Part shown: positions 1,425-19,590 of the stretch, piece by piece | How the letters are laid out: each line of letters opens with the position of its first letter | Numbering within the stretch: the stretch's first letter is position 1 | DNA from: Promethearchaeota archaeon | Lineage (GTDB): Archaea > Asgardarchaeota > Odinarchaeia > Odinarchaeales > JBHLKK01 | Reading direction: 5' to 3' | Assembly: GCA_048939465.1 (NCBI GenBank) | Contig: JBHLPL010000017.1 | Span: 1 to 24,765, forward strand | Length of the DNA: 24,765 nt | Made by a program: the position numbers and the translations under genes | Notes under the pieces: generated by a model | Databases searched by the model: none | What the model was told of the DNA's origin: nothing | The model's input: the letters and a program-made list of their open reading frames with translations, nothing else

Positions 1425-1937
1425 TTGAGGAAACAGAACAGATTATCTGTCGCTCTAAATGAGATCAAAGAGCGATATAACGATCTAATTGACATACATC
1501 GAACGAGACTTGAAGAACTCCTCACCGTGCTGGAAAAACTAAGGACTTCTGAGCCTGAGAAACAAGCAGAGATAGTCAATTCATTGGTGGAGAAGATATT
1601 TTCTTTCAGTGAATTTCTAGACCAGTTGGAGATTTGGGCGTATGACGTCGGAAGTCTGGAAATTGCAGGAAATACCATTGACAAATCGGTATCTTCATTT
1701 TCCTCACAAGTGAAGGAAGAGGTTGAAATTCTTGAAGAAGTGAAGGCTTCCAGTCGAGACTTGGTAAAGACTAAAGGATTGGACACGAAATTGACCAGAA
1801 GTGTAAGAAATGCATTCATCAAGAGTACCTCAAGACTAAAAGAAGTCTCCTCCAAGGTCAAAGAATACGGAGAACAGCTGTTTGATCTAATCTCGAAAAG
1901 GAAAGGACTGATAGACTCGTCAATAGATCGACTCTAG
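1425..1937 (+). CDS. Hypothetical all-helical/coiled-coil protein (170 aa)
   Basis: TTG start preceded by AGGTGA SD; amphipathic E/K/L-rich sequence; followed by a T-rich terminator-like tract. Confidence 0.7.
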   Translation: MRKQNRLSVALNEIKERYNDLIDIHRTRLEELLTVLEKLRTSEPEKQAEIVNSLVEKIFSFSEFLDQLEIWAYDVGSLEIAGNTIDKSVSSFSSQVKEEVEILEEVKASSRDLVKTKGLDTKLTRSVRNAFIKSTSRLKEVSSKVKEYGEQLFDLISKRKGLIDSSIDRL

Positions 1938-1998: not shown

Positions 1999-2047
1999 GT
2001 GAACTGCTCCACCCTTTCGGATGGAATCTTCTTGGGGAGAAGAAGAT
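1999..2047 (-). repeat. Hairpin repeat copy A (IS200/IS605 right-end-like)
   Basis: Minus strand AUCUUCUUCUCCCCAAGAAGAUUCCAUCC-GAAA-GGGUGGAGCAGUUCAC; 7-bp stem with GAAA loop; 42/49 identical to copy E (17237-17285). Confidence 0.8.
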
Positions 2048-2083
2048 AAATATCGGTGGAATACTCATCTATACGGTGGTTGT

Positions 2084-2114
2084 GTAAACTACTCCTCCCT
2101 TACAGAAGGAGCTT
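2084..2114 (-). repeat. Hairpin repeat copy B
   Basis: Minus strand AAGCUCCUUCU-GUAA-GGGAGGAGUAGUUUAC; 8-bp stem with GNRA loop; 21/28 identical to copy A, with a compensatory A-U to U-A change. Confidence 0.75.
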
Positions 2115-2124
2115 ATGGCTATGC

Positions 2125-2156
2125 TTGACCTCAATTCCCTTTCAGGCTTTGGATTC
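2125..2156 (-). repeat. Possible degenerate repeat copy C
   Basis: Minus strand GAAUCCAAAGCCU-GAAA-GGGAAUUGAGGUCAA; only the CCU-GAAA-GGG core and an imperfect stem are kept. Confidence 0.3.
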
Positions 2157-2336
2157 ATCACATGTCAAATCAGGAGGTGGTTTACAGCGCCTCGGCTCGG
2201 TAGTCCACATATAACGTCGGGCTATATACTTCGTCCTTTCAATTCTCCGCGCAGGTCATTAACTGTTTCCACATCAGAGAGAGGTGTGCCTTCAGACTTA
2301 TTTACATGTCCGGCCCAGAAGTGTTTAAGGACCTCT

Positions 2337-2387
2337 CAATTTCTCTCCGCCCTTTCGTGCGGAGTCTCCTTGAGGTGGTTTAGATGA
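2337..2387 (-). repeat. Hairpin repeat copy D, overlapping the SD and start codon of the NDP-sugar gene
   Basis: Minus strand CUCCGCAC-GAAA-GGGCGGAG hairpin; 2361-2387 is 24/27 identical to 14147-14173 (copy F). Confidence 0.7.
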
Positions 2388-3550
2388 AGGCGATCATTCC
2401 TGCGGGTGGATACGGGACCAGGCTAAGACCCCTAACCTATTCAAAGCCTAAAGTCTTACTACCGTTGGCTGGAAAACCAATGCTGTGGTATGTAATAGAG
2501 TATTTGCTAAACTACGGTATTAGGGAGCAGATCATTTCAGCCAATGCTGAATTTAGGGAAATCGAGGAGTACTTTGGCGATGGTTCAGAATTTAAGGCAA
2601 AGCTCAGCTATATATGGGAAAAACAAAGGCTTGGAGGAGTAGGCTGTATCAAGAACGCTTCAAAAGGACTACATGATGCGTTTCTGGTCATGCTCCCGGA
2701 TAACCTAACCGATGTTAACATATCAAACATGATTAAGTTCCATAGAGAAAAACGGTCGGACGCGACCGTTACTCTTGTCCATTCTAAAACACCTTGGTTG
2801 TACGGAGTACCGGAAATAGGAGAAGATGGTAGAATAAGGAATTTCATCGAAAAACCAGACGAAGTTGACCCTACTCATATAGCAACAGGAATCTACATAT
2901 TCGAACCTCATGTCATGGACGATATTGACGATAACAGATTTATGGACCACACAGGTGAAATATTTCCGATAATGCTTCAAGCAAGAAGAAACGTATTTGG
3001 TTTCAGAACAAACGCTTTCTGGGTAGACATTGGAAATCCCACGAAATATCTAATGGCAAACAAATGGGTATTAAGCAAACTCAAGAGCAAAGTCTTCCCG
3101 GCTGCCAATGCTCGGGACGCAATCATAAGAGGAAGGGTTGACATAGGTGCTAACACGGTTATTGAGTCAGGAGCGAGAATTAATGGACCTGCTTATATCG
3201 GTGACAGTTGCCATATCAAGAGAGACTCAATAATTGGTCCGAATACATCGATAAGCTCCAATGTTAGAATCGGGGAACACGTTCAGATTAGAGGCAGTCT
3301 GGTTTATGAATGGTCAGATATTGGAAATAAGACGAAAATGCGGGATTCGATCGTTGCAGAAAAAGTGTCAATCGGACGGGACGCAAGGATAAGCGATAGC
3401 ATTGTTGGCTCTGAATGCGTCATTGGACGTTCTTCAACGATTCGGTCAAATTCAAGGATCTGGCCCAAAATCCGCGTTGAGCCAAAATCAACGATAAAAG
3501 GAATTCTGAGACACACGTATCTGCCCATCAAATCTGATTTGCATCAATAA
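2384..3550 (+). CDS. NDP-sugar synthase / sugar-phosphate nucleotidyltransferase (mannose-1-phosphate guanylyltransferase-like, GCD1 family) with left-handed beta-helix tail
   Basis: MKAIIPAGGYGTRLRPLT..KPK signature, FIEKP, FWVDIG, C-terminal hexapeptide repeats; GAGGTG SD. Confidence 0.92.
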   Translation: MKAIIPAGGYGTRLRPLTYSKPKVLLPLAGKPMLWYVIEYLLNYGIREQIISANAEFREIEEYFGDGSEFKAKLSYIWEKQRLGGVGCIKNASKGLHDAFLVMLPDNLTDVNISNMIKFHREKRSDATVTLVHSKTPWLYGVPEIGEDGRIRNFIEKPDEVDPTHIATGIYIFEPHVMDDIDDNRFMDHTGEIFPIMLQARRNVFGFRTNAFWVDIGNPTKYLMANKWVLSKLKSKVFPAANARDAIIRGRVDIGANTVIESGARINGPAYIGDSCHIKRDSIIGPNTSISSNVRIGEHVQIRGSLVYEWSDIGNKTKMRDSIVAEKVSIGRDARISDSIVGSECVIGRSSTIRSNSRIWPKIRVEPKSTIKGILRHTYLPIKSDLHQ

Positions 3551-4933: not shown

Positions 4934-5719
4934 TCAATGGCTTTTAAGAGTTTCTCTGACTACTTTTCGTGCAAAGGTAATATACGCAGTGTGTCCAATT
5001 ATCAGAGTTGCGGGGCGGGTCATATTCTCCCTTACCAATATGGGACGGACTAGGCATTCAACAGTTGTTATTAGGCCGAATTCGTTCCTCATAGCATACA
5101 CAGTCTTCTGCGTCTGTTCGATTGTTGGAGAGTAACTTACGAGAACTCCTCCCGCCTTCAAAGCTTCATAAGCGTGGGGGATCGCGATCCAAGGTGTAGC
5201 CAGATCCAGAATTACCGCGTCGATATCTCGCTCGTCGATTCCTTGGGTTACGTCTTTATTTTTGAGTTCTATGTAGTCGACCAAACCAGCTTTCTTTATA
5301 TTCTTCTCAGCGATCTTAATGTGATTCTCCTTTATCTCATAGCTGTAGACCCTTCCTGAAGGTCTGACAATATTGGCAAGCATGATTGCAAGCGCCCCGC
5401 TGCCCGTTCCTGCTTCAAGTACTTGACTCCCTGCCCCAATTCCGGCGTATGTAATTATTATGGCTGCATCTTTCGGATAGATAATTTGTGTTTTTCGATT
5501 AACCTTGAGAGCGAAGTCTTTCATGAGCGGATAAAAGACCATAAACTCGGTGCCCGTATTGCTCTTGACACAACGTCCATACCCACTTCCAATTATATCA
5601 TTGAAATCCACTATCCCCTTGTGTGTGTGAAGTTTCTTGTCTTTTTCAGCTTTTACTAACCATTGTCTCTTAGTGTCTAGAGCTATCAGTACGGGATCGC
5701 CCTCTCTTATCACCGTCAT
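4934..5719 (-). CDS. trmI: tRNA (adenine-N1)-methyltransferase (m1A57/58), TrmI/Trm61
   Basis: RKTQIIYPKDAA, VLEAGTGSGAL SAM motif, YSYE, DAVILDLATPW, SYSPTIEQ, GHTAY. Confidence 0.95.
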   Translation of the reverse strand: MTVIREGDPVLIALDTKRQWLVKAEKDKKLHTHKGIVDFNDIIGSGYGRCVKSNTGTEFMVFYPLMKDFALKVNRKTQIIYPKDAAIIITYAGIGAGSQVLEAGTGSGALAIMLANIVRPSGRVYSYEIKENHIKIAEKNIKKAGLVDYIELKNKDVTQGIDERDIDAVILDLATPWIAIPHAYEALKAGGVLVSYSPTIEQTQKTVYAMRNEFGLITTVECLVRPILVRENMTRPATLIIGHTAYITFARKVVRETLKSH

Positions 5720-6882: not shown

Positions 6883-6957
6883 CACTAGATATCAGAGCAG
6901 GAAGAATTGGTGAAGGGAATAGCAAACTAGTTGCTTGAGTTCATTGAGGGCTCAAAA

Positions 6958-7638
6958 ATGGAAGTCTTTTGGGATAGGCAAGTGAAGCTTCAGTTTCCTG
7001 AATTGAAAATAGCTTTTGGAACAGTCGAGAATATAGTAGTAAAGCCCAGTGGAAATATGCTCGATCACATTGAGAAAAAGATTCTCGAAGAAGCAAGAGC
7101 CAAATACACGCTTCAGAACCTGAAGGACGAGCCAATCATACGTATGTATCGAGACTTCTACTGGCTCTTAGATATTGACCCGACAAAAACAAGACCGGCT
7201 GGCGAGGCATTGATACGTCGGGTACTGAGAGGAAATAGAGTTCCGAGAATATTGAATGTTGTCGATGCATACAATCTGGTGTCCATCGAGACACGTCTAG
7301 CTTTCAGTGCTTATGACCTTGATAAGCTGAATCCTCCACTGACAGTCCGCTTTTCAAGAATCAATGAGACGTTTGTGGGCATGGGGAAGGAAATTCCTCA
7401 AAAGTTGACAGGTAAAGAGATTATTCTTACTGATCAAAGACAAATAAGGAGTCTTTATCCTCATAGGGATGCCAAGAATTCAAGGATTACTAGGCTGACA
7501 AGAAGTATTTTGCTTGTTGTTTACGGGGTGCCTGGCATTGAAGGAAAGGTCTTGGAGGAAGGACTGACAAAATCATGTGAGTTAATTACGGCAATCGCAG
7601 GAGGAACGGCAGGAGAGATCCAAGTAAGCTACCCCTAG
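6958..7638 (+). CDS. Stand-alone B3/B4 domain protein (PheRS-beta editing-like, tRNA-binding)
   Basis: YRDFYWLLDIDPTKTRPAGEALIRRV, NVVDAYNLVS, AYDLDKL, YPHRD. ORF open from TTG 6931. Confidence 0.88.
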   Translation: MEVFWDRQVKLQFPELKIAFGTVENIVVKPSGNMLDHIEKKILEEARAKYTLQNLKDEPIIRMYRDFYWLLDIDPTKTRPAGEALIRRVLRGNRVPRILNVVDAYNLVSIETRLAFSAYDLDKLNPPLTVRFSRINETFVGMGKEIPQKLTGKEIILTDQRQIRSLYPHRDAKNSRITRLTRSILLVVYGVPGIEGKVLEEGLTKSCELITAIAGGTAGEIQVSYP

Positions 7639-7857
7639 CTTTCGTAAGGGACTTCCTCCCCCGGATTCTGAATCGATATTAACTCTCCTTTTGGAGTGAT
7701 AAAGACTGGGGAGATTCTGGGCCGATTCACTTCCCGCCTTGAGCCGCCACAGACTTCTGGATAACCCTCCCGTGAAGCATAAGTCAGAGGGGCTGTTACC
7801 CACGCAGACCTCTCCCTTTGATAGCCTCCCTGCTTTCGAGGTAACAGATCCTGGCCC
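7624..7857 (-). ncRNA. Candidate structured ncRNA (~234 nt) ending in repeat copy G; TnpB omegaRNA / IS200-IS605 right-end-like
   Basis: Several helices: GGGCC 7857-7853 with GGCCC 7723-7719; CUGUUACC 7847-7840 with GGUAACAG 7800-7793; CCCUCU 7791-7786 with GGAGGG 7770-7765; CUCCCC 7713-7708 with GGGGAG 7661-7656. Terminal CCCUUAC-GAAA-GCUAGGGG-UAGCUUAC matches the repeat family. TATA box TTAAATAT at 7880-7873. Confidence 0.5.
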
Positions 7858-7862
7858 TAAAT

Positions 7863-7882
7863 ACTTAAGAGGATATTTAAGT
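7863..7882 (-). promoter_or_regulatory. TATA box inside an inverted repeat, upstream of the candidate ncRNA
   Basis: Minus strand TTAAATAT at 7880-7873; ACTTAA (7863-7868) / TTAAGT (7877-7882) inverted repeat overlaps it. Confidence 0.45.
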
Positions 7883-8049
7883 GTAAAGCAATTCATCGCC
7901 ATGATTTCGAATGGCGTCTTCTTGCGATGAGCAGACAAAATCGTCTGGATGGGATTTTCTGAGAGCGTTATGGATGTGCTCTTAATTCTTCTTTATAGGC
8001 AACATATATTTAGCTTAGAAACCATTAATAGATTTGAGAGGAATTAATA

Positions 8050-13494: not shown

Positions 13495-14127
13495 ATGAGT
13501 GCCTCGGATGTACCCAAGGATCAGGAAGAAGAGAGGGAAAGACCCACACTTCTGAACAGGATTAGAACATATGTGAGAATTACCGGTATAAATGAAATCG
13601 CGAGACGGTATTTTGTAATGAATGCCTTCGATGGGGCCTTGACAATCCTTGGGATTATTATGGGTGCCTATGCAATAGGAGCCATCGATCCGAAAGTTAT
13701 TATAGGCGCAGGTCTCGGCGGAAGCTTAGCAATGGCAATCTCAGGAGTCAGCGGAGCTTATATGACCGAGAGCGCAGAGAGACTTAGAGAGTTAGAGAGA
13801 TTAGAGAAAGCGATGCTGAAAACACTGGACAATACTGTTCAGTCAAGAGCGATTAGATTCGCATCCATATATGTAGCCGTAGTGGATGGAGCAGCCCCAT
13901 TAGCTGTTTCAACGATTGCAATAGTTCCTTTCATTCTATCCCAAATAGGCCTTTTCGAAGTTGGGATTGCAGTTATTCTATCTGTAGGCGTTAATCTTCT
14001 TATACTCTTCTTGCTTGGTGGATTTCTAGGGAGAATCTCAAAAAGAAACGTAATCATCTCTGGTCTAAAGATGGCGGCCGCAGGGATCGGGACAGCACTT
14101 GTTGCATTGTTGCTGAATCTTCTGTAG
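13495..14127 (+). CDS. VIT1/CCC1-family metal (Fe/Mn) transporter-like protein
   Basis: RRYFVMNAFDGALTILG, AMAISGVSGAYMTESAE, LFLLGGFLGRIS. ORF open from 13468. Confidence 0.88.
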   Translation: MSASDVPKDQEEERERPTLLNRIRTYVRITGINEIARRYFVMNAFDGALTILGIIMGAYAIGAIDPKVIIGAGLGGSLAMAISGVSGAYMTESAERLRELERLEKAMLKTLDNTVQSRAIRFASIYVAVVDGAAPLAVSTIAIVPFILSQIGLFEVGIAVILSVGVNLLILFLLGGFLGRISKRNVIISGLKMAAAGIGTALVALLLNLL

Positions 14128-14173
14128 ACTACCCACTCTATCTGAAGGAGTCTCCTTGAGGTAGCTCAGATGA
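14124..14173 (-). repeat. Hairpin repeat copy F (stem decayed), filling the gap between convergent VIT1 and methyltransferase genes
   Basis: gtagactac-ccactctatctgaaggagtctccttgaggtagctcagatga; left half aligns to copy E, right 27 nt are 24/27 identical to copy D. Confidence 0.7.
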
Positions 14174-17236: not shown

Positions 17237-17285
17237 GTGAACTACTCCACTCTTTCGGACGGAGTCCTCTTACGGAGAAGAAGAT
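17237..17285 (-). repeat. Hairpin repeat copy E
   Basis: Minus strand AUCUUCUUCUCCGUAAGAGGACUCCGUCC-GAAA-GAGUGGAGUAGUUCAC; 42/49 identical to copy A 15 kb away; two hairpins kept through G-U wobbles. Confidence 0.8.
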
Positions 17286-18981: not shown

Positions 18982-19590
18982 ATGAATGAGACTTTCACAC
19001 CAAAAACCAGAATCACTAGTATCCCCGGAAGCTCCTTCAAGATTCAGCTGGGGAGAATGGGTGGCTGGGTTATTAGAATCTTGAGAGGTCTGAATATCGT
19101 ATCAACAGTTCCCATAGATGAGGATAGCCTGGTGCCCAACAATATAGTGACAATCATCCAAGTCAATCTTTCGAATAGGTTTATGCCAATCTCACCCTAT
19201 CAAATCTCTCGTGCGGTGTCACAACTCATGAACGACGTGGAAACCGGCTGGAGGCCGGAAGACGAGCGTCTTGTGCAAAGAGAAATTGAAGGAGAAGTCG
19301 AAACAACTGTTTCTGAAGAAACCTCAATGGATTCCGAGACAATAGAAACGTCAGAAGCTGAAATCAGTAAAAGAATCAGAGATGAAACGAAGACCGAAAG
19401 TCAGCTGGAAGGAGAAAGAGAAGCTATTTCACCAAGAATGAGAATGCCCACGGTACTAACACTTCTTGGGCTGCCAAAAAAGGAGAAAGAAGCTGAAGAG
19501 ACCAAGGAAGAAGCTGAAAAAGAAGCTGAAGAGACCAAGGAAGAAGCTGAAAAAGAAGCTGAAGAGACCAAGGAAGAAGAAAGAACCTAG
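18982..19590 (+). CDS. Hypothetical protein: small N-terminal globular domain plus long acidic low-complexity tail with tandem repeats
   Basis: 202-aa ORF; E/T/S-rich after residue ~90; KEAEETKEEAE repeats at the C-terminus. Confidence 0.75.
   Translation: MNETFTPKTRITSIPGSSFKIQLGRMGGWVIRILRGLNIVSTVPIDEDSLVPNNIVTIIQVNLSNRFMPISPYQISRAVSQLMNDVETGWRPEDERLVQREIEGEVETTVSEETSMDSETIETSEAEISKRIRDETKTESQLEGEREAISPRMRMPTVLTLLGLPKKEKEAEETKEEAEKEAEETKEEAEKEAEETKEEERT
19486..19579 (+). repeat. Coding tandem repeat, 33 nt x 2.85
   Basis: AAAGAAGCTGAAGAGACCAAGGAAGAAGCTGAA exact at 19486-19518 and 19519-19551, plus 28 nt at 19552-19579. Confidence 0.95.

What the first reader, a model, noticed from the sequence alone, without database searches (positions are those of the whole stretch)
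1999..2387. Array-like cluster of right-end repeats with unique intervening sequences
Seen: the 445-nt gap between two plus-strand genes holds copies D, (C), B and A in tandem on the minus strand. The 36 nt between B's terminus and A's 5' hairpin (2048-2083) are unique and spacer-sized. The segment ending in B begins with GGGCC at 2306, 223 nt upstream and preceded by CTTAA, which mirrors the GGGCC start and 234-nt length of the 7857-7624 RNA, although the interiors do not align convincingly. Established: type V CRISPR repeats are thought to derive from duplicated TnpB right ends, and omegaRNA arrays are known for OMEGA systems. Inference: either stacked scars of repeated insertion at a hotspot, or a primitive multi-guide array intermediate between a single omegaRNA and a CRISPR array.
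Basis: partly seen in the sequence, partly recalled or inferred. Interest (0 to 1): 0.72.

Follow-up and report, generated by a model that had tools for sequence, protein, structure and literature searches.

The report
Two gene-less TnpB transposon remnants, no array
The "array" is two separate insertions of small, protein-free derivatives of a TnpB-carrying insertion sequence (one of 300 bases, one of 47) that landed side by side in front of a sugar-nucleotide transferase gene of an Asgard archaeon; this kind of element is already described, so the case is clear but ordinary.

Summary
The hairpin repeats are real but are not four tandem units. Copies "D" and "B" are the left and right ends of one 300-nt gene-less IS200/IS605 derivative (a PATE; 2383->2084, minus strand). 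It has about 20 copies in this 1.96-Mb genome. It shares its ends and 3' region with a full-length 1.25-kb tnpB element. Copy "A" (2045->1999) is a different, 47-nt "terminal-only" PATE: left-end segment, one hairpin, right-end terminus. About 20 such minis exist. "C" is not a copy.

Two genomes of the same genus have the two flanking genes about 55 nt apart with neither element. With both elements removed, the window aligns collinearly with them, so the 38-nt "spacer" is ancestral intergenic DNA and not an acquired guide. Near-identical strains in four metagenome runs keep the same arrangement. The 90-aa ORF is not conserved.

The 300-nt element inserted 3' of TTCAT, the complement of the gene's ATGAA start. 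It keeps a TATA-like box and the guide-RNA (omegaRNA) region, so it probably makes an omegaRNA used in trans by TnpB. That step is inferred; no RNA data exist.

PATEs, 52-bp terminal-only PATEs and stand-alone omegaRNAs are published, and this scan noted similar elements in other archaeal genomes. Low interest.

The parts
2084..2383 (-). E2: complete 300-nt gene-less IS200/IS605 derivative (PATE), made of left end, a short internal tnpB piece, and the tnpB 3' end with the right end
   Evidence: Aligns end to end with 17 other genomic copies at 79% mean column identity. Absent at the orthologous site in G001 and G002.
2384..2388 (-). TTCAT target/TAM motif directly 5' of the E2 left end. Its complement, ATGAA, is the start codon plus two bases of the NTP-transferase gene.
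   Evidence: TTCAT or a close variant flanks the left end of most copies. It is present in the empty sites.
2311..2383 (-). E2 left end, with subterminal hairpin (about 2364-2345) and a TATA-like TTAAACA (2328-2322)
   Evidence: Profile positions 1-73 match the left end of the full-length tnpB element. The hairpin folds as ssDNA with z = -4.2 and is paired in 88% of cells. In the full-length element the equivalent TATA-like box starts 29 nt before the tnpB ATG.
2252..2299 (-). Highly conserved internal block, derived from an internal tnpB coding piece (RWKRFMTW region)
   Evidence: Profile 85-132 matches joined-element positions 5133-5167 inside tnpB. These are the most conserved columns of A1.
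2084..2226 (-). omegaRNA-scaffold-like region: remnant of the tnpB 3' coding end plus the right end, with hairpin and terminus GTAGTTTAC ending at 2084
   Evidence: Profile 158-300 matches the last 150 nt of the full-length element, E = 1e-21. The right-end hairpin is paired in 89% of cells.
2064..2083 (-). Predicted guide segment of an E2 omegaRNA (flank immediately 3' of the right end); part of the ancestral intergenic DNA
   Evidence: The flank differs in every copy. It has no second genomic match. It is homologous to the empty-site sequence of relatives. Its guide function is inferred.
2046..2083 (.).
   Evidence: With E1 and E2 removed, the window aligns collinearly with G001 and G002.
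1999..2045 (-). E1: 47-nt terminal-only PATE, made of a left-end 5' segment, one hairpin and the right-end terminus GCAGTTCAC
   Evidence: About 20 such minis lie at unrelated loci. Its halves match the left end (C2:25967-26009) and right end (C2:27253-27283) of a tnpB element. It folds into two hairpins, z = -2.5. It is absent in G001 and G002 and in a divergent relative in run X9.
2384..3550 (+). Sugar-phosphate nucleotidyltransferase gene (388 aa), intact, immediately downstream of the E2 left end
   Evidence: Pfam NTP_transferase 4.9e-48 plus hexapeptide repeats. The N-terminus is conserved in relatives.
1425..1937 (+). Upstream gene (170 aa, no Pfam family), conserved in congeners
   Evidence: 79% DNA identity to G001 and G002. 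No Pfam hit.

Best explanation
The gap holds two independent insertions of non-autonomous derivatives of IS200/IS605-family (TnpB) insertion sequences. Both lie on the minus strand, in an intergenic region that was originally about 110 nt long.

E2 (2383->2084, 300 nt) is a PATE. It keeps the left end with its hairpin and a TATA-like box, a 45-nt internal tnpB piece, and the last 150 nt of the parent element (tnpB 3' end plus right end), which is the omegaRNA-coding part. It inserted 3' of TTCAT, exactly between the ribosome-binding site and the ATG of the nucleotidyltransferase gene, without target duplication.

E1 (2045->1999, 47 nt) is a terminal-only PATE of a sister subfamily. It has one hairpin flanked by the left-end 5' segment and the right-end terminus, and it inserted 3' of TTTAT.

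Shown: element boundaries, family membership, parent element, empty sites, absence of coding.

Inferred:
- Both were mobilised in trans as single strands by the genome's Y1 transposase TnpA.
- E2 is transcribed from its left-end TATA box into an omegaRNA of about 220 nt. Its 3' guide is the flank 2083->2064. TnpB made elsewhere would use it to cut the empty TTCAT-flanked site and so favour retention of the element.
- E1 has no scaffold and is inert, or at most a hairpin or terminator.

The adjacency of the two is coincidental.
For: Family membership:
- About 20 full copies of E2 and about 20 minis lie at unrelated loci with unique flanks.
- About 16 copies of a 220-nt E1-type PATE exist.

Parent element:
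- Contigs C70 and C55 overlap by 77 nt and join into a 1,247-nt element with an intact 381-aa TnpB.
- This protein is related to solved TnpB/Cas12f structures.
- Its left end, an internal piece and its last 150 nt match E2 profile positions 1-73, 85-132 and 158-300.
- A 378-nt intermediate at C5:939-1316 still holds Zn-ribbon coding remnants.
- One Y1 tnpA is present in the genome.

Empty sites:
- Congeners G001 and G002 have the same two genes 53-59 nt apart.
- With E1 and E2 removed, the window aligns collinearly with them, with TTCAT retained and no duplication.
- A divergent relative's contig in run X9 aligns only from 2384 onward, and another skips 1978-2045.

Non-coding: the 90-aa ORF is open in only 7 of 18 copies, shifts frame between copies, and shows no third-position excess.

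Literature:
- PATEs, and 52-bp terminal-only PATEs formed by repeat-mediated core deletion (PMC3119063).
- PATEs that encode omegaRNAs needing TnpB in trans (PMC10055086).
- Stand-alone omegaRNAs that work in trans (PMC10691335).
Against: - No RNA data exist for this organism, so transcription, ends and processing of an E2 omegaRNA are unproven.
- Single-sequence folding of 2300->2084 is no better than shuffles (z = 0.13). The alignment consensus structure is weak (-22 kcal/mol) although 15 of 39 pairs show a double change.
- E2 differs from the only full-length relative by two internal deletions and about 20-25% divergence in the scaffold, so compatibility with that TnpB is not shown.
- Whether the 47-nt minis transpose as such or arise repeatedly by deletion in place is open.
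- The genome is a 91%-complete MAG, so counts of tnpA and tnpB are lower bounds.
Confidence: 0.9

Rival explanations
1. Primitive multi-guide array: tandem right-end repeats separated by spacer-like guides, transcribed on the minus strand and processed into several omegaRNA/crRNA-like units. This would be an intermediate between a single omegaRNA and a type V CRISPR array.
For: - E2's right end and E1 both end in a hairpin plus (G/T)AGTT(T/C)AC terminus, and they lie 85 nt apart in the same orientation.
- De novo array origin by duplication of omegaRNA segments is a published hypothesis (PMC10691335).
Against: - There are only two such termini, belonging to elements of different size and subfamily.
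- The intervening 38 nt is ancestral intergenic DNA, present in relatives that lack both elements.
- Strains from four runs show the same arrangement with no turnover.
- The flanks have no second genomic target. The single 18-nt viral matches lack an adjacent TAM and are at the number I estimate for chance.
- E1 has no scaffold.
- With at least 56 elements and about 2,000 gaps, a shared gap is expected about once per genome (estimate).
Confidence: 0.02
2. Domesticated cis-regulatory cassette. The E2 left end, read on the plus strand, now supplies the translation start region of the nucleotidyltransferase gene. It carries GAGGTGG 6 nt before the ATG, an in-frame TAG just upstream, and perhaps an outward TATA-like box about 56 nt upstream. 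On this reading the element persists because the host gene depends on it.
For: - The insertion sits exactly between the native GGTGG motif and the ATG. The left-end complement restores a similar motif at similar spacing, and the gene stays intact in all strains.
- 13 of 28 E2-type left ends in this genome abut the start of an ORF of at least 100 aa. The baseline is 4.1% of all TTCAT sites and 16.7% of non-genic TTCAT sites.
Against: - This is a consequence of where the element landed, not evidence of selection for it.
- Only 2 of 9 copies examined in the congeners abut long ORFs, close to the baseline.
- The control is crude (ORF-based, no gene calls).
- There are no expression data.
- The conserved left-end terminal bases are needed for transposition anyway.
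Confidence: 0.15
3. The plus-strand 90-aa ORF (2115-2387) is a real small protein gene carried by the repeat.
For: An ORF of 84-102 aa is open in 7 of 18 copies.
Against: - It is broken or much shorter in 11 of 18 copies.
- The C-terminal halves are in different frames in different copies.
- Column entropy by codon position is 0.74, 0.63 and 0.74, so there is no third-position excess.
- It has no Pfam family.
- It overlaps the start codon of the next gene.
Confidence: 0.02

Closest known systems
PATEs (palindrome-associated transposable elements) of Haloquadratum walsbyi and other archaea (Dyall-Smith et al. 2011, PMC3119063)
   Same: - Protein-free.
- No target duplication.
- Subterminal palindromes related to those of IS605-type (IS1341/tnpB) transposons.
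- Insertion next to a 4-6-nt target.
- Many dispersed copies that differ between strains.
- Origin by deletion of the core of a tnpB element, some keeping C-terminal coding remnants.
   Different: - The host is an Asgard archaeon.
- The sequences are unrelated to the haloarchaeal families.
- The target is TTCAT.
- The first 12 nt of the E2 left end and the complement of its last 12 nt agree at about 8-9 positions, a weak inverted-repeat-like feature that classical PATEs lack.
52-bp terminal-only PATEs (HqIRS46 core deletions, ISHwa23-derived; PMC3119063)
   Same: E1 (47 nt) and about 20 similar minis consist of the fused termini around a single palindrome. This is what repeat-mediated deletion between the two near-identical palindromes would give. 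They occur at several strain-specific sites, which suggests they may still be mobilised.
   Different: A mini-like sequence also sits directly upstream of the only tnpA (C105:997-1043). The minis might therefore equal the left end of the autonomous element rather than a fusion. This was not resolved here.
PATE-like and stand-alone omegaRNA loci of OMEGA/TnpB systems (Meers et al. 2023, PMC10055086; Altae-Tran et al. 2023, PMC10691335, citing the 2021 OMEGA paper)
   Same: - A gene-less element that keeps the right-end omegaRNA region.
- A different flank (guide) at each copy.
- A compatible TnpB encoded elsewhere in the same genome.
   Different: Expression and use in trans are shown in those papers for bacterial systems. 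Here they are only inferred.
REP sequences and RAYT transposases of bacteria
   Same: Very short single-hairpin repeats evolutionarily tied to IS200/IS605 Y1 transposases, scattered in intergenic DNA.
   Different: - No RAYT-type domesticated single-copy transposase was identified.
- The minis keep both transposon termini and are clearly derived from a resident tnpB element.

Membership tests
IS200/IS605-derived PATE (E2, 2084-2383) | Too short to encode a transposase, and no conserved ORF | tested here: met
   The element is 300 nt. The ORF is open in 7 of 18 copies, its frame is not conserved, and there is no codon-position signal. No Pfam hit.
IS200/IS605-derived PATE (E2, 2084-2383) | Subterminal palindromes (hairpins) at both ends | tested here: met
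   The left-end hairpin folds with z = -4.2. The right-end hairpin is present, though weak with DNA parameters. Cells are paired at 88% and 89% across 18 copies.
IS200/IS605-derived PATE (E2, 2084-2383) | No terminal inverted repeats | tested here: inconclusive
   By eye, the first 12 nt of the left end and the reverse complement of the last 12 nt of the right end agree at about 8-9 of 12 positions. This is not a classical TIR, but it is not zero. The E1-type ends show no such match.
IS200/IS605-derived PATE (E2, 2084-2383) | No target-site duplication; insertion 3' of a short conserved target | tested here: met
   The empty sites read TTCAT followed directly by the homologue of the right-end flank. 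TTCAT-like motifs lie 5' of most copies.
IS200/IS605-derived PATE (E2, 2084-2383) | Ends shared with a full-length tnpB-carrying element | tested here: met
   The joined C70/C55 element (1,247 nt, TnpB 381 aa) matches E2 at the left end, an internal piece and the last 150 nt.
IS200/IS605-derived PATE (E2, 2084-2383) | Evidence of mobility (presence/absence at orthologous sites) | tested here: met
   Absent at this locus in two congeners that carry copies elsewhere.
IS200/IS605-derived PATE (E2, 2084-2383) | Y1 transposase (TnpA) available in trans and acting on these ends | not testable with these tools
   One Y1_Tnp gene is present (C105:1180-1545, E = 7.5e-37). Its activity on E2 or E1 ends cannot be tested here.
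Terminal-only PATE (E1, 1999-2045) | Fused left-end 5' segment, single palindrome and right-end terminus, about 50 nt, in several copies at unrelated sites | tested here: met
   The element is 47 nt, with about 20 minis in the genome. Its halves match the left and right ends of the C2 tnpB element. It is absent in congeners.
TnpB omegaRNA gene | Scaffold homologous to the tnpB 3' end plus right end, with a copy-specific flank as guide | tested here: met
   Profile positions 158-300 match the 3' 150 nt of the full-length element, E = 1e-21. Every copy has a different flank.
TnpB omegaRNA gene | Conserved RNA secondary structure supported by covariation | tested here: inconclusive
   The RNAalifold consensus is weak (-22 kcal/mol), with 15 of 39 pairs showing a double change. 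The single-sequence z-score is 0.13. No Rfam family matches.
TnpB omegaRNA gene | Transcribed, bound by TnpB, and directing TAM-dependent cleavage | not testable with these tools
   No RNA run holds this DNA. Biochemistry would be needed.
CRISPR-like or omegaRNA array | Several direct repeats of one unit at regular spacing | tested here: not met
   There are two elements of 300 and 47 nt from different subfamilies. Only the hairpin-terminus module of about 28 nt is shared, and no further units exist.
CRISPR-like or omegaRNA array | Spacers acquired from elsewhere, or variable among strains | tested here: not met
   The 38-nt interval is ancestral intergenic DNA. The arrangement is the same in strains from four runs. 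No TAM-flanked match was found in the genome or in viral contigs.

The most novel reading that the evidence does not exclude
The E2 family may be adapted to land exactly in front of start codons. Its target/TAM, TTCAT, is the complement of ATGAA. The plus-strand reading of its left end supplies GAGGTGG at Shine-Dalgarno spacing, an in-frame TAG, and perhaps an outward TATA-like box. On this reading the element would act as a portable 5'-UTR cassette that can sit between ribosome-binding site and ATG without killing the gene. Each such copy would also carry an omegaRNA guide that matches a gene's translation start region.
Probability: 0.15. Interest if true: 0.5.

Novelty: new member of a known kind. 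Interest (0 to 1): 0.2.

Why it matters
The case shows that an apparent repeat-spacer-repeat layout next to TnpB-type ends can arise trivially when small non-autonomous IS200/IS605 derivatives pile up in one intergenic gap. It should therefore not be read as an incipient CRISPR array.

It also documents a rich set of TnpB-derived gene-less elements in an Asgard archaeon. There are at least 56 complete copies in three size classes, with defined ends, target motifs (TTCAT, TTTAT) and a candidate parent TnpB. This could serve anyone looking for compact archaeal TnpB/omegaRNA pairs with known TAMs.

The start-codon-adjacent insertions are a small lead on how such elements are tolerated in compact genomes.

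Tried and rejected
- Rfam at gathering thresholds over the whole window gave no family. ARAGORN found no tRNA.
- Folding the putative omegaRNA alone (2300->2084) gave z = 0.13, which is uninformative.
- RNAalifold on 18 copies gave a weak consensus that prefers a long-range helix over the local right-end hairpin. I did not build a covariance model on it.
- I searched the genome for second targets of the 20 copy-specific flanks and of E1's flank, allowing up to 3 mismatches in 18 nt. Only self-matches or TAM-less 3-mismatch hits came back.
- Exact 18-mers of the two flanks in viral contigs gave one hit each, with no adjacent TTCAT and no extension of the match. I take this to be about the number expected by chance for a collection of this size, which is my estimate.
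- Sequencing runs: no RNA holder is listed, so expression could not be examined.
- MAFFT of the raw window against the empty sites misplaced the gaps. I replaced it with a pairwise alignment after removing the two elements.
- I considered the 90-aa ORF as a protein and rejected it.
- I considered that GGTGGTT on both sides of E2 could be a target duplication. I rejected this because the left-end copy of that motif is part of the element in all copies, and the other copies have unrelated right flanks.
- I looked at the Asgard aCas1-TnpB 'hypervariable region plus GTTCACTCA' layout. The geometry here is different.

Full report
WHAT IS THERE. The window is contig C23 of a 1.96-Mb, 152-contig, 43% GC genome. 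A 22-nt core of the repeat also occurs in MAGs labelled Candidatus Hodarchaeota archaeon DZ1B.307 and Candidatus Borrarchaeum yapensis, so this is an Asgard archaeon.

The 446-nt gap lies between a 170-aa gene (1425-1937) and a nucleotidyltransferase gene (2384-3550; Pfam NTP_transferase 4.9e-48). Searches of the gap against the whole genome split it into two unrelated-length repeats:
- a unit of about 300 nt covering 2084-2383, with about 20 full copies at 80-88% identity;
- a unit of about 50 nt at 1999-2050, with about 25 matches.

ANATOMY OF E2. An alignment of 18-20 copies with flanks gives sharp boundaries. On the minus strand the element starts CTAAACCACCTC at 2383 and ends GGAGTAGTTTAC at 2084. 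It is 291-306 nt long in 18 copies. The 5' flank is TTCAT or a close variant in most copies, and the 3' flank is different in every copy.

Both ends hold a hairpin of the type CTCCNNCC-GAAA-GGNNGGAG.

PARENT ELEMENT.
- The genome has TnpB genes on C2, C105 (next to the only Y1 tnpA) and C70/C55, plus remnants.
- C55 ends and C70 starts with the same 77 nt. Joined, they give a 1,247-nt element with an intact 381-aa TnpB. By eye this protein carries the GVDLG, IED and SDLNGA motifs and two CxxC pairs.
- It is related to solved TnpB/Cas12f structures.
- An HMM of the E2 alignment matches this element in three places. Profile 1-73 is its left end. Profile 85-132 is a piece inside tnpB. Profile 158-300 is its last 150 nt, E = 1e-21.
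- A 378-nt copy on C5 still holds Zn-ribbon coding remnants.

E2 is therefore an internal-deletion derivative that keeps the left end and the region where TnpB elements encode their omegaRNA. The left end carries a TATA-like TTAAATA. In the full-length element it starts 29 nt before the tnpB ATG. In the window the equivalent TTAAACA is at 2328-2322, so a transcript would start near 2300. This start position is an inference.

ANATOMY OF E1. On the minus strand, 2045->1999 reads left-end 5' segment, one hairpin, then the terminus GCAGTTCAC. The same 46-52-nt layout occurs about 20 times in two subfamilies, and two further copies lie in this window (14124-14169 and 17237-17283). Its 5' part matches left ends, and its 3' part matches right ends, of longer elements. 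These include the tnpB element on C2 and a 220-nt PATE family with about 16 copies. The 5' flank is TTTAT in most copies of this subfamily.

INSERTIONS, NOT AN ARRAY. Two same-genus genomes have the same two genes 53-59 nt apart, with neither element present, while carrying E2 copies elsewhere. After removing 1999-2045 and 2084-2383, the window aligns collinearly with both. The 38 nt between the elements corresponds to their intergenic DNA. TTCAT/ATGAA is retained, and nothing is duplicated.

Contigs from four metagenome runs show the occupied arrangement in near-identical strains. In run X9, a more divergent relative's contig skips 1978-2045, with empty-site-like letters in between. Another X9 contig aligns only from 2384 onward.

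With at least 56 complete elements and roughly 2,000 intergenic gaps, one shared gap per genome is expected by chance. This is my estimate. Other clusters exist, for example three E2 copies within 3.1 kb on C139.

OTHER TESTS.
- The 90-aa plus-strand ORF is open in 7 of 18 copies, changes frame between copies, and has no third-position excess.
- The flanks have no second TAM-adjacent match in the genome.
- The single 18-nt viral matches look like chance.
- No RNA run is available.
- RNA structure support is weak.

MECHANISM. The steps of mobilisation, transcription and guide use follow established knowledge of IS200/IS605 'peel and paste' transposition and TnpB homing (PMC10055086; PMC10691335). 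They are set out under Best explanation and marked there as inferred.

KNOWN OR NEW. Dyall-Smith et al. 2011 defined PATEs and described 52-bp terminal-only versions made by repeat-mediated deletion between the two palindromes. Meers et al. 2023 noted PATEs that encode omegaRNAs needing TnpB in trans. Stand-alone omegaRNAs working in trans are summarised in PMC10691335. Earlier notes of this scan describe the same kind of element in other archaeal genomes. This is a new member of a known kind.

SIDE OBSERVATION. Because TTCAT is the complement of ATGAA, E2 sits exactly before the start codon. The left-end complement reads GAGGTGGTTTAG before the ATG, close to the native GGTGGTTAAGA of the empty sites.

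In this genome 13 of 28 E2-type left ends abut the start of an ORF of at least 100 aa. The baseline is 4.1% of all TTCAT sites and 16.7% of non-genic TTCAT sites. In the congeners only 2 of 9 do so. This may reflect tolerance rather than adaptation.

Noticed in passing
window 2371-2386 and E2 copies genome-wide (e.g. C66:3549, C139:4065, C59:1911, C27:4168, C116:22377): The E2 target TTCAT is the complement of ATGAA. 13 of 28 E2-type left ends abut the start codon of an ORF of at least 100 aa, against 4.1% of all and 16.7% of non-genic TTCAT sites. The left-end complement supplies GAGGTGG 6 nt before the ATG and an in-frame TAG. In two congeners only 2 of 9 copies do so.
   Followed up: partly
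window 7624-7934 (minus strand): A third family member: a 311-nt gene-less element with an E1-type left end (target TTTGT, TATA-like TTAAATA) and right-end terminus GTAGCTTAC at 7624. Its last 15 nt overlap the 3' end of the B3_4-domain ORF (6931-7638). Its interior is unrelated to E2.
   Followed up: partly
window 14124-14169 and 17237-17283 (minus strand): Two more terminal-only minis: an E2-type one just past the stop of the 707-aa Eco57I-like methylase gene, and an E1-type one inside a 120-aa ORF with no Pfam family.
   Followed up: partly
G000 C70:1-77 and C55:5967-6043: The two contigs overlap by 77 identical bases inside a tnpB gene and can be joined. The assembly broke in the repeat.
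   Followed up: yes
G000 C66:3252-3549 and G001 C22 (L041:96-394); G002 C115 (L042) and G001 C10 (L047): Some E2 insertions are orthologous between species of the genus, with the same flanking gene start (MNKKLQH...) and similar flank. E2 copies can therefore persist since before speciation, whereas the window's copy is younger.
   Followed up: partly
G000 C105:997-1043: A mini-like sequence (left-end segment, hairpin, GTAGTTTAC) sits about 137 nt upstream of the genome's only tnpA. The left end of the autonomous element may itself look like a complete mini.
   Followed up: no
E2 ends (window 2372-2383 and 2084-2095): The first 12 nt of the left end and the complement of the last 12 nt of the right end agree at about 8-9 positions. 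One position differs in step between E2 (T/A) and the full-length element (C/G).
   Followed up: no
window 19483-19581: Three tandem 33-nt repeats (91-100% identical) encoding a Glu/Lys-rich stretch at the end of the ORF 18982-19590.
   Followed up: no
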